The position numbers were made by a program, and so were the translations under genes. The notes beneath the pieces are model-generated. The model was not told the origin of the DNA. It ran no database searches and saw nothing but the letters and a program-made list of their open reading frames with translations. Below are positions 5,055 to 7,574 of a stretch of 8,922 nt of DNA, in pieces; position 1 is the first letter of the stretch; the number at the start of each line of letters is the position of its first letter. Where the stretch lies: the IMG/VR virus record IMGVR_UViG_2660238499_000001; one strand, 5' to 3'. The stretch is from a virus. Taxonomy: Duplodnaviria > Heunggongvirae > Uroviricota > Caudoviricetes.

Positions 5055-6970
5055 GCCGCTACCCCCGCTTTCTGGATTGCTACCAACAGATCAGCCAGGT
5101 GGCGAGCTGCGCCGTTAACCAGCTCTTCGTTTTCCTCAAAACGTCCGGCAGCCTGAAGGGCTGCAATCGCTTCCCGGACATTGCCCCGGGCGTTACGGAT
5201 CTCCGCCATGTCAGTGCTTTTCATATCCATCACGTTATTGAGATATTCAATGGCTTTATTAGCCTCTGCATCTGCTTCGCTAACCGTTTCATCAGGCTGT
5301 GCCGGGGCCGGTTCTGGCTGAGTAATCTCACCGACTTCGGCCTGCAATGCATTGATCATGCTCTGCACCATTTTCTCGGTGCCAGCGCCCCCAGGAAACG
5401 CAATATTGGGGAAAGTTTTTTGAAACTGAGTTTTCAGCATTACGCGGAACTCGTCTGGTGAGCTGGTGGCCAGCTCCAGAGCTTTTTGTGCATATTTGCC
5501 AAACGGACCATTAGTAAGTGTCTTCGCCAGGAAGTCGAAAGAATCCTCGCGAGGCAATAACTTCAGGTCGTACTCACTCATTTGCTGATCAGAAAGCGGG
5601 GTATCGAAAGTAGCAATGCCGTAGCGTGCATATTCATAATACGGGTCACCTTCATCAGGGCGCGGCAGAATTGCTTTGTTACCTTCAGGTATTGCGCCAG
5701 GGGCCGCCGGACGCATTTGCAGGGCATATCGATATGCACCTACAGAGACTTCTGGTTCAGGCGAAGAGCTACCGGTATCCTCCGCTTGTTCAGGTTCGAC
5801 GTTTTCCGGTTTATGTTCTTCTGGTTGGACCAGGTATTCCGATACATTACCCGCTTTATAGGCTTTAAACAGCTTGCCGATCGCATCTGCCATGTCCACA
5901 CCCTGTATGGATTTAGCCTTGATCATGTATACGCTGCCATCCGGATCGGTTAACTGGATATACCCTTCGCCGCCCCCAATGAATTGCTTCATTGATGCAC
6001 CATTACTGAGCGTCACTTCCCCGTCCATATGCATACGATTTTTGATACTGGCAAGGCGATCCGTCAGCGCGCGAGAGTGCCCACCAGTCATCCCCGCTGG
6101 AGCAATGGTATCGCGCCCACCGGTGCGATTGAGCTGATCAATCTCCGTCTGCAAACGCTCATTCTCTTCATAAAGAGAATCCGCTTCCGATGCAACAGCG
6201 TTAATTTTCTGCTCCAGATCTGCCTTCTGCCCTTCTACCGCTGCCACCTGATCCGCGAGGTCGCTCATGGCATCCTCTTTCTGGTCACTGTCAGCCTGTA
6301 GTTGGGTTATTTCATCAACAAGGGCTTTTTTCTTCTTCTGCGCACGCTGGAATTTTGCCGAGTTTTTCTCTGCAAGGTTGGCAAGTTTCATGGTGACCTG
6401 CGCCAGCGTCATATCACGTCCACTCATCGGAGCAACGGTGTGAGTAACGTCTTTTTTATTCAGTAAGAACTGGAAAGCAACCAGCGTATCGCTATTGGTG
6501 ATCCGGTTTTCCGCTGTCGGGCTATGAAACAGAATGCTGATAGTCTGACCATCACTGAGCGGAATAATGGCTGGCAAGACCGGCAGCCCGTTAACGTTAC
6601 GTGCCCGGCCAATTTCAGCGCCGCCGATCGCGCGCGCGCCGCTCTGGGCCACATCCCCCGTTTTATCACTCCCCGCAGAGATTCCGGTACCATTCAGCTT
6701 CTGGTTCAATGCCCGGACAAATGCCTGCATGGTCCGGTGTAACTGCAAACGAGTAGAACTAATCGCCTCCAGTAAATCCGTAGCACACCAGTGGATCGGC
6801 GTGTCATAGAAGAACGTAGCCTCGATTTCCTCCAGGGTGTTGGATTCCGTCATCAGATAGCGGTCCTCACCGGCCATTAATGCGCGATATTCATCATCAG
6901 TCACTGGCGGGGGAAGCACGTCAAGCCCAGGCTTGATCGTCACCCCTTTATTGATATTGAACTGTTCCAT
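5051..6970 (-). CDS. darA: DarA-like capsid-internal antirestriction protein (639 aa)
   Basis: 1920-nt ORF; its start is 1 nt after the stop of the upstream 203-aa gene. The N-terminal half contains a module homologous to that gene (the Hdf/DarA relationship), then a coiled-coil-like segment and Pro/Glu-rich linkers. The 639-aa length matches my recollection of P1 DarA (~69.6 kDa). Confidence 0.8.
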   Translation of the reverse strand: MEQFNINKGVTIKPGLDVLPPPVTDDEYRALMAGEDRYLMTESNTLEEIEATFFYDTPIHWCATDLLEAISSTRLQLHRTMQAFVRALNQKLNGTGISAGSDKTGDVAQSGARAIGGAEIGRARNVNGLPVLPAIIPLSDGQTISILFHSPTAENRITNSDTLVAFQFLLNKKDVTHTVAPMSGRDMTLAQVTMKLANLAEKNSAKFQRAQKKKKALVDEITQLQADSDQKEDAMSDLADQVAAVEGQKADLEQKINAVASEADSLYEENERLQTEIDQLNRTGGRDTIAPAGMTGGHSRALTDRLASIKNRMHMDGEVTLSNGASMKQFIGGGEGYIQLTDPDGSVYMIKAKSIQGVDMADAIGKLFKAYKAGNVSEYLVQPEEHKPENVEPEQAEDTGSSSPEPEVSVGAYRYALQMRPAAPGAIPEGNKAILPRPDEGDPYYEYARYGIATFDTPLSDQQMSEYDLKLLPREDSFDFLAKTLTNGPFGKYAQKALELATSSPDEFRVMLKTQFQKTFPNIAFPGGAGTEKMVQSMINALQAEVGEITQPEPAPAQPDETVSEADAEANKAIEYLNNVMDMKSTDMAEIRNARGNVREAIAALQAAGRFEENEELVNGAARHLADLLVAIQKAGVAA

Positions 6971-6971
6971 G

Positions 6972-7574
6972 TTAATTTCCTGCTTTCAGTTGCTTAAGAC
7001 GACGTTTGAGTTCGCCATTCCGTGCCTTTTCGTTATTGAGTCGGCCCGTCTCCTTATCCAGCTTCGCCCGCAAATCAGTGATCTGCTGTTGATTGAAAGA
7101 CACCGAATTCTGCGCGGACTTATAAGCGGCAACCACCTGAGCATTCCGCTGTTTTGCTTCTTGCAGGCGCTGAAAGTTGGATTTAACTGCCGGTTTCTTG
7201 TCTACCGGATTGGCAACACGCTTCGCTTTGGCGATCAGTGATTTCTGGAATTTTGCGGAGTTTTTGCGGGCCGCCTGTCCCATGACGGTACCAAGCGTCT
7301 TGATATCCGGCGACTGAGCGTTAGGAATAGCTTTTCCATTCAGTTTCACAGACGATATATCGCCAGTATCGTTTACCTGTATGGCAAGAATTTGTCCGTC
7401 GTTAAGAACCAGCTTTGCGGTTTTAACTTTAACGCCATCTTTCGTTGTTGCGCGGTTGCTGGAGTCAACCTCAATTACCGTAACCCCGGTTTTATTGATC
7501 GCCGCGATAAGGGATTTCAGCCCCTTTTCATTAACCTGGTCAAAATCGACCGTTGCATACTTATTTTTCGTCAT
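6972..7574 (-). CDS. hdf: Hdf-like protein (homolog of the DarA N-terminal module); 200 aa from the RBS-supported ATG, 203 aa if the ORF-track start at 7583 is used
   Basis: ORF 6972..7583. The ATG at 7572-7574 has AGGA 8 nt upstream; the ATG at 7581-7583 has no spacer. Shares the motifs (L)xDGQ(I/T)(L/I)xI and KNSAKFQ with the DarA-like protein. Confidence 0.75.
   Translation of the reverse strand: MTKNKYATVDFDQVNEKGLKSLIAAINKTGVTVIEVDSSNRATTKDGVKVKTAKLVLNDGQILAIQVNDTGDISSVKLNGKAIPNAQSPDIKTLGTVMGQAARKNSAKFQKSLIAKAKRVANPVDKKPAVKSNFQRLQEAKQRNAQVVAAYKSAQNSVSFNQQQITDLRAKLDKETGRLNNEKARNGELKRRLKQLKAGN

What the first reader, a model, noticed from the sequence alone, without database searches (positions are those of the whole stretch)
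6326..7421. Hdf-like and DarA-like proteins share an internal module: partial gene duplication
Hdf residues ~55-122 (TAKLVLNDGQILAIQVND...TLGTVMGQAARKNSAKFQKSLIAKAKR; coords 7218-7421) align with DarA residues ~127-215 (LPAIIPLSDGQTISILFHS...TLAQVTMKLANLAEKNSAKFQRAQKKKKA; coords 6326-6592). Both are followed by coiled-coil-like sequence. A second, weaker similarity links the Hdf N-terminus (VDFDQVNEKGLKSLIAAINKTGVTVIE) to DarA ~355-380 (VDMADAIGKLFKAYKAGNVSEY), hinting at module shuffling. The shared module may be the unit that targets these proteins into the capsid.
Basis: seen in the sequence. Interest (0 to 1): 0.5.

Follow-up and report, generated by a model that had tools for sequence, protein, structure and literature searches.

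The report
Phage P1 Hdf–DarA shared domain

Summary
The window is the darA operon of a P1-type phage/plasmid, 98.7-99.2% identical to P1 records. It reads lydC-lydA-lydB-hdf-darA-ddrA-ddrB-hxr on the minus strand. The reported similarity is real. BLASTP gives 29% identity and E = 0.001. Smith-Waterman scores 85 against 43±7 for shuffles (0/2000). Pairwise evidence alone is modest: z falls to about 3 once the identical heptapeptide KNSAKFQ is removed.

Profile and fold evidence settle the homology:
- Pfam DarA_N (PF18788) matches Hdf 13-109 (1e-21) and DarA 66-204 (1e-42).
- hhalign of the two families gives E = 3e-10 over Hdf 43-202 / DarA 121-283.

The second claimed similarity (Hdf N-terminus to DarA ~358-379) is no better than chance, so module shuffling is not supported.

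The duplication is ancient. A short-then-long DarA_N gene pair recurs in 6 of 6 distant loci examined.

All of this is published: Iyer 2017 defined the domain, and 2025-26 cryo-EM shows 55 DarA-Hdf pairs on the inner capsid wall. Verdict: already known, low interest.

The parts
6972..7583 (-). hdf coding sequence (203 aa; many database homologues start at Met4, giving 200 aa)
   Evidence: ORF list. 201/203 identical to PDB chain 9ukm_H 'Hdf'. Annotated hdf in P1 records.
7257..7547 (-). DarA_N domain of Hdf (residues 13-109 by Pfam; the folded N-domain runs to about residue 124)
   Evidence: PF18788, E 1.1e-21, profile positions 2-122 of 122. The AF2 model shows helix 23-31, four strands 36-81 and helix 94-124.
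6975..7178 (-). C-terminal long alpha-helix of Hdf (residues 136-203), net charge +9
   Evidence: AF2 helix 136-202, pLDDT about 90. Cryo-EM modelled residues 135-203 as the alpha-helix domain on the capsid inner surface. Charge.
5051..6970 (-). darA coding sequence (639 aa)
   Evidence: ORF list. Full-length match to PDB 9ukm_I 'Defense against restriction protein A', 1385 bits. P1 annotation.
6764..6970 (-). DarA-specific acidic N-terminal extension (residues 1-69), absent from Hdf and probably removed by the prohead protease
   Evidence: Not visible in cryo-EM; the authors link it to the ~9 kDa fragment cleaved by Pro. Conserved in all long-type relatives and absent from short-type ones. 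Net charge -10.
6359..6775 (-). DarA_N domain of DarA (residues 66-204); called the 'hexon binding domain' in the cryo-EM paper
   Evidence: PF18788, E 1.4e-42, profile positions 2-122 of 122. Cryo-EM description.
6116..6358 (-). Long helix of DarA (about residues 205-285; boundaries approximate), net charge -7, collinear with the Hdf helix
   Evidence: The hhalign alignment runs to DarA 283. Weak coiled-coil Pfam matches at 184-282. Cryo-EM alpha-helix domain. Charge.
5825..6115 (-). DarA residues 286-382, the penton-binding domain in the cryo-EM model.
   Evidence: Cryo-EM domain description. The claimed similarity is no better than shuffles.
5555..5740 (-). DarA_C domain (residues 411-472), not shared with Hdf
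   Evidence: PF18789, E 3.5e-16.
7245..7265 (-). 21 nt encoding KNSAKFQ in hdf; 20/21 identical to the copy in darA
   Evidence: Direct repeat family D2; sequences printed.
6347..6367 (-). 21 nt encoding KNSAKFQ in darA
   Evidence: Direct repeat family D2; sequences printed.

Best explanation
The region holds hdf and darA of a P1-type phage, two adjacent paralogous genes.

Origin (inferred). An ancient tandem partial duplication produced a short gene and a long gene. The short gene (Hdf) is a DarA_N alpha+beta domain plus one long helix. The long gene (DarA) has the same unit, preceded by a cleavable acidic N-terminal extension and followed by penton-binding, DarA_C and C-terminal regions.

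Function (shown by others; published cryo-EM and genetics). The two products work as a heterodimer. Their long helices pack in parallel, held by complementary charge, on the inner capsid wall at penton-hexon junctions, with 55 pairs per head. The basic N-domains face the packaged DNA. The pair is needed for normal head size and for loading the other Dar anti-restriction proteins, and it leaves the head with the DNA.

Inferred here. The duplication predates the spread of these phages and the pair is kept as a unit. The shared DarA_N plus helix is therefore best read as the dimerising, capsid- and DNA-contacting core of the system, not as a simple address tag.
For: Identity of the locus:
- 98.7-99.2% nucleotide identity to P1 records, with P1 annotation.
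- Near-identity of both proteins to PDB 9UKM chains H and I.

Homology:
- Pfam DarA_N matches both proteins over the full profile.
- hhalign gives E 2.9e-10 over Hdf 43-202 / DarA 121-283.
- The combined family alignment has 188 aligned columns with shared conserved D62/D140, Q64/Q142, L81/L170, N82/N171 and F112/F207.

Ancient, retained pair:
- A short DarA_N gene lies immediately upstream of a long DarA_N gene in L003, L006, L088, L089, L090 and L091.
- Short forms match short forms and long forms match long forms better than either matches its own neighbour.

Mechanism:
- Cryo-EM paper PMC12810830 and the bioRxiv preprint.
- The helix charges, +9 for Hdf and -7 for DarA, agree with the reported electrostatic pairing.
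- The N-domains are basic in all seven pairs.

Prior description of the shared domain: Iyer et al. 2017.
Against: - Pairwise sequence evidence alone is weak. BLASTP E is only 0.001, and z drops to about 3 without KNSAKFQ.
- The helix regions alone are not significantly similar pairwise (z 1.25). Their homology rests on collinearity, the profile alignment and structure.
- Charge complementarity of the helices is not seen in the distant pairs, so the way the two proteins pair may differ elsewhere.
- Three loci carry a long-type protein with no detectable short partner within about 5 kb (L004, L005, L007), so the pair is not universal.
- The Hdf N-domain was not resolved experimentally, only fitted to low-resolution density.
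Confidence: 0.93

Rival explanations
1. The shared DarA_N module is itself the capsid-targeting unit, an address tag sufficient to load any protein fused to it into the head.
For: Both proteins that carry the module are internal head proteins, and the DarA copy contacts the hexon through loop 102-116. Hdf is not proteolytically processed and has no other domain that could target it.
Against: In the cryo-EM model the main capsid contacts come from the helices, and the N-domains of both proteins face the DNA. The hexon-contacting loop lies in a stretch where DarA is longer than Hdf. DarA has its own conserved, cleaved N-terminal extension next to the capsid protein's cleavage site, which looks like a classical targeting or scaffold-like peptide. 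No fusion experiment was found in the papers read.
Confidence: 0.2
2. The similarity is convergent or due to chance: a basic, helix-rich composition plus one shared heptapeptide, with no common ancestry.
For: The pairwise score loses most of its significance when KNSAKFQ is removed. The coiled-coil parts are not significantly similar on their own.
Against: A curated Pfam model matches both proteins end to end. The profile-profile E-value is 2.9e-10. The same conserved D, Q, LN and F positions occur in both families. The Hdf model finds DarA as its only strong structural match in the whole PDB. P1 Hdf matches a distant long-type protein at E 2e-5.
Confidence: 0.02
3. Module shuffling: besides the main module, a second piece of Hdf (its N-terminus) was copied from or to DarA ~355-380.
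Against: The alignment scores below the mean of shuffles: z -0.6, with 2295/3000 shuffles at least as good. The Pfam model places Hdf 13-42 opposite the first helix of DarA_N (DarA ~66-105), collinear with the rest. DarA 286-382 is a separate penton-binding domain.
Confidence: 0.02

Closest known systems
Bacteriophage P1 Hdf and DarA (Dar anti-restriction system; PDB 9UKM / 9VZ0)
   Same: These are the same genes. Hdf is 201/203 identical to chain 9ukm_H, and DarA matches 9ukm_I over its full length. The operon order matches P1: lydA-lydB-hdf-darA-ddrA-ddrB.
   Different: There are a few substitutions (Hdf A27T and N61S relative to the PDB sequence). The left flank differs from reference P1: IS1 sits closer to hxr, isaB is missing, and an IS3-family fragment is present. 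That flank is 100% identical to a 454-kb E. coli plasmid.
Pfam PF18788 DarA_N (Iyer, Burroughs, Anand, de Souza & Aravind 2017, polyvalent proteins)
   Same: [quoted passage not shown] Both window proteins pass the gathering score over the full profile and keep the conserved Asp and the Asn-x-basic motif.
   Different: The Pfam model stops before the long helix. Here the homology continues collinearly through the helix to the end of Hdf.
Phage 80alpha / SaPI1 CpmA-CpmB capsid-size proteins (comparison made by the cryo-EM authors)
   Same: Both are accessory internal proteins that influence capsid size during assembly.
   Different: No sequence or fold relation was found. CpmA/B are removed on maturation, whereas DarA-Hdf stay in the mature head and are ejected with the DNA. 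This is a functional analogy only.

Membership tests
Pfam DarA_N (PF18788) | Score above the curated gathering threshold (27 bits), covering the whole profile | tested here: met
   Hdf scores 77.3 bits over residues 13-109, profile 2-122 of 122. DarA scores 144.8 bits over residues 66-204, profile 2-122 of 122.
Pfam DarA_N (PF18788) | Conserved aspartate and Asn-x-basic motif (Iyer 2017) | tested here: met
   D62 and N82-G-K84 in Hdf; D140 and N171-K-K173 in DarA. D and N are invariant within each family alignment and aligned with each other.
Pfam DarA_N (PF18788) | Alpha+beta fold | tested here: met
Phage P1 Dar system (hdf-darA pair) | Near-identity to P1 Hdf and DarA | tested here: met
Phage P1 Dar system (hdf-darA pair) | Operon context lydA-lydB-hdf-darA-ddrA-ddrB | tested here: met
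   Pfam LydB, holin and ddrB-ParB matches in the expected order; P1 annotation.
Phage P1 Dar system (hdf-darA pair) | Both proteins packaged in the head, mutually required, and protective against type I restriction | not testable with these tools
   Taken from the literature. Not tested for this particular element.
Paralogues from a partial tandem duplication | Collinear homology of all of one gene with part of its neighbour | tested here: met
   Hdf 13-202 aligns with DarA 66-285 in the same order, and the genes are adjacent on the same strand.
Paralogues from a partial tandem duplication | Recent origin (DNA-level similarity beyond the protein level) | tested here: not met
   Only one 21-nt patch is shared at the DNA level. 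Orthologous short/long pairs exist in distant phages.
Module shuffling between Hdf N-terminus and DarA 355-380 | Alignment score above shuffled controls | tested here: not met
   z -0.6, with 2295/3000 shuffles at least as good.

The most novel reading that the evidence does not exclude
The short-plus-long DarA_N gene pair is an ancient and obligate two-protein module found far beyond P1-like phages. An Hdf profile finds 339 protein clusters, and 6 of 6 distant loci examined show the tandem pair, sometimes directly followed by DarB-like or polyvalent giant proteins. Under this reading the pair is a general inner-capsid docking platform for ejected anti-defence cargo. A further possibility is that the near-identical 21-nt KNSAKFQ patch in P1 marks a small gene-conversion event between the paralogues.
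Probability: 0.3. Interest if true: 0.35.

Novelty: already known. Interest (0 to 1): 0.1.

Why it matters
The finding adds nothing new for P1. The Hdf-DarA relationship is built into a Pfam family (2017), and the complex has been visualised in the virion (2025-26). The extra work here gives three modest refinements. The homology covers the long helix as well as the globular domain. The short/long pair is conserved as a tandem unit in distant phages. The still-open question is which part of the unit directs the proteins into the procapsid: the DarA_N domain, the helix, or DarA's cleaved N-terminal extension. Answering it would matter for using P1-type heads to deliver cargo proteins.

Tried and rejected
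- The helix regions alone were tested for pairwise similarity and were not significant (z 1.25). Homology of the helices is accepted only on collinearity, profile and structural grounds.
- I tested whether charge complementarity of the two helices is a conserved signature of the pair. It holds in P1 (+9/-7) but not in the distant pairs, so it was rejected as a general rule.
- A viral-contig scan with the Hdf alignment returned only near-identical P1 copies in the 80 loci kept, which was no use for diversity. Distant pairs came instead from exact-protein look-ups.
- Łobocka 2004 (P1 genome) and Piya 2017 are not held in the library. My recollection that 'hdf' stands for 'homolog of DarA fragment' could therefore not be verified and is marked as memory. 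A phrase search found nothing.

Full report
**What the window is.** The 8.9-kb window is 98.7-99.2% identical to bacteriophage P1 records over nt 5000-8866. On the minus strand it carries the P1 darA operon:

| Gene | Coordinates | Size |
|---|---|---|
| lydC | 8398-8679 | |
| lydA | 8001-8330 | |
| lydB | 7561-8004 | |
| hdf | 6972-7583 | 203 aa |
| darA | 5051-6970 | 639 aa |
| ddrA | 4689-5054 | |
| ddrB | 1689-4676 | |
| hxr | 1391-1699 | |

These assignments rest. Hdf is 201/203 identical to PDB chain 9ukm_H, and DarA matches 9ukm_I over its full length.

**Checking the observation.** The coordinates are right: nt 7218-7421 encodes Hdf 55-122 and nt 6326-6592 encodes DarA 127-215.
- BLASTP aligns Hdf 29-115 with DarA 107-210 at 29% identity, E = 0.001.
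- Smith-Waterman with BLOSUM62 gives 85 against 43±7 and 40±6 for shuffles of either protein (z 6-7, 0/2000).
- Much of the pairwise signal comes from one identical heptapeptide, KNSAKFQ. Without it, z is about 3 and p about 0.01.

**Decisive evidence for homology.**
- The curated Pfam model DarA_N (PF18788) matches Hdf 13-109 (77 bits, E 1e-21) and DarA 66-204 (145 bits, E 1e-42). Both matches cover profile positions 2-122 of 122.
- Family alignments built from database homologues give hhalign probability 96.8% and E 2.9e-10. The alignment runs from Hdf 43 to 202 and DarA 121 to 283, that is, through the long helix to the end of Hdf.
- A joint alignment has 188 aligned columns (41 identical). 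The residues conserved at ≥90% in both families coincide: D62/D140, Q64/Q142, L81/L170, N82/N171 and F112/F207. These match the conserved Asp and Asn-x-basic motif that Iyer et al. described.
- An AlphaFold2 model of Hdf (pLDDT 82.7) shows helix 23-31, four strands 36-81, helix 94-124, a loop, and helix 136-202.
- Against the whole PDB, the only Foldseek hits with E ≤ 0.001 are the DarA chains 9vz0_I and 9ukm_I (E 8e-6 and 1e-5, about 200 aligned columns).

**The second claimed similarity.** Hdf 12-38 against DarA 358-379 scores 13 against a shuffle mean of 15 (z -0.6; 2295/3000 shuffles at least as good). The Pfam model instead places the Hdf N-terminus opposite the first helix of DarA_N, collinear with the rest. 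DarA 286-382 is a separate penton-binding domain in the cryo-EM model. Module shuffling is not supported.

**Age and distribution of the duplication.**
- At the DNA level the two genes share only one 21-nt patch, 6347-6367 and 7245-7265, 20/21 identical and encoding KNSAKFQ.
- An Hdf-family profile finds 339 cluster representatives (E ≤ 0.001) among 1.84 billion proteins. Most are about 200 aa and matched end to end.
- In all six distant loci I could inspect, a short DarA_N gene lies immediately upstream of a long DarA_N gene. The loci are L003, L006, L088, L089, L090 and L091.
- Short proteins match P1 Hdf and long ones match P1 DarA far better than either matches its own neighbour. For example, L006 short against Hdf gives E 3e-10, L006 long against DarA gives E 2e-22, and L006 short against L006 long is not significant.
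- The duplication therefore predates these lineages and the pair has been kept together.
- Three loci carry a long-type protein with no detectable short partner nearby (L004, L005, L007).
- All long-type proteins have an N-terminal extension of about 60-70 residues that the short ones lack.

**How it works (from the literature, with what I add).**
- Cryo-EM of P1 (PMC12810830) places 55 DarA-Hdf pairs on the inner capsid surface at penton-hexon junctions.
- The two alpha-helix domains form a parallel bundle held by complementary charge and bind the capsid.
- The DarA N-domain touches the hexon through loop 102-116.
- The N-domains of both proteins present a positive face to the DNA.
- DarA residues 1-69 are absent from the map, consistent with cleavage by the prohead protease.
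- The pairs are gone from heads that have ejected their DNA.
- Genetics cited there show that loss of either protein removes all other Dar proteins from the virion and shifts heads to the small size. A bioRxiv preprint reaches a similar picture.
- My calculations agree. The Hdf helix has net charge +9 and the DarA helix -7, and both N-domains are basic (+10 and +5).
- The basic N-domains are conserved in all seven pairs, but the charge complementarity of the helices is not.

The helix and DarA's cleaved extension are at least as likely to carry that role.

**Comparison with what is known, and novelty.** Iyer et al. [quoted passage not shown] Pfam carries the family, and sources label Hdf relatives 'defense against restriction DarA-related protein'. 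From memory, which I could not verify because the P1 genome paper is not held, the gene name hdf itself stands for 'homolog of DarA fragment'. The finding is therefore already known.

The small additions here are:
- the extension of homology through the helix;
- the conserved tandem short/long pair in distant phages;
- the rejection of the second similarity.

**Verdict.** Novelty is 'already known' and interest is low (0.1).

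Noticed in passing
window 6347-6367 and 7245-7265: The heptapeptide KNSAKFQ shared by DarA and Hdf is encoded by 21 nt that are 20/21 identical, although the proteins are otherwise only ~22-29% identical. In Hdf relatives that are 79% identical the motif differs (e.g. NNSVKFR), whereas it is conserved in the DarA family. This may be a small gene-conversion patch, or it may be coincidence.
   Followed up: partly
window 1-1400: The left flank differs from reference P1. An IS3-family transposase fragment lies at 12-377. 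An IS1 copy (about 505-1297) has shortened insA/insB reading frames (54 and 107 aa). isaB is absent, so IS1 lies only ~270 bp from hxr. Nt 1-1700 are 100% identical to a 454-kb E. coli plasmid, NZ_CP034659.1.
   Followed up: partly
L006 4461-11209: In an unrelated phage contig, the short (176 aa) and long (402 aa) DarA_N genes are followed directly by a giant protein of more than 1660 aa. It has N6-methylase, LAGLIDADG and SNF2-helicase matches and so resembles DarB. Here hdf, darA and a darB-like gene are contiguous, unlike in P1.
   Followed up: partly
L089 4624-8627; L091 6709-8615: In other relatives the long partner is part of, or followed by, very large multi-domain proteins. L089 has DarA_N plus DarA_C inside a protein of more than 1334 aa. 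L091 has a 2393-aa neighbour with HATPase, InPase and ddrB-ParB domains. This fits the 'polyvalent protein' theme.
   Followed up: no
window 7561-7583: The annotated hdf start (ATG at 7583) overlaps the end of lydB by 23 nt. Most database homologues are called from the Met at residue 4 (200 aa), so the true start codon is uncertain.
   Followed up: no
L004, L005, L007: Long-type DarA_N proteins occur without a detectable short partner within about 5 kb. Examples are a Methylomonas chromosome (next to pRha, KilA-N and AntA genes), a metagenome contig, and a Xenorhabdus P1-like plasmid where a transposase sits just upstream.
   Followed up: partly
window 6764-6970 (DarA 1-69): The acidic N-terminal extension of DarA (net charge -10) is conserved in all long-type relatives, with a recurring L-E-x-x-x-x-E-E-[IF]-E-like stretch. 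It is the part reported to be cleaved off, which makes it a candidate targeting or scaffold-like peptide.
   Followed up: partly
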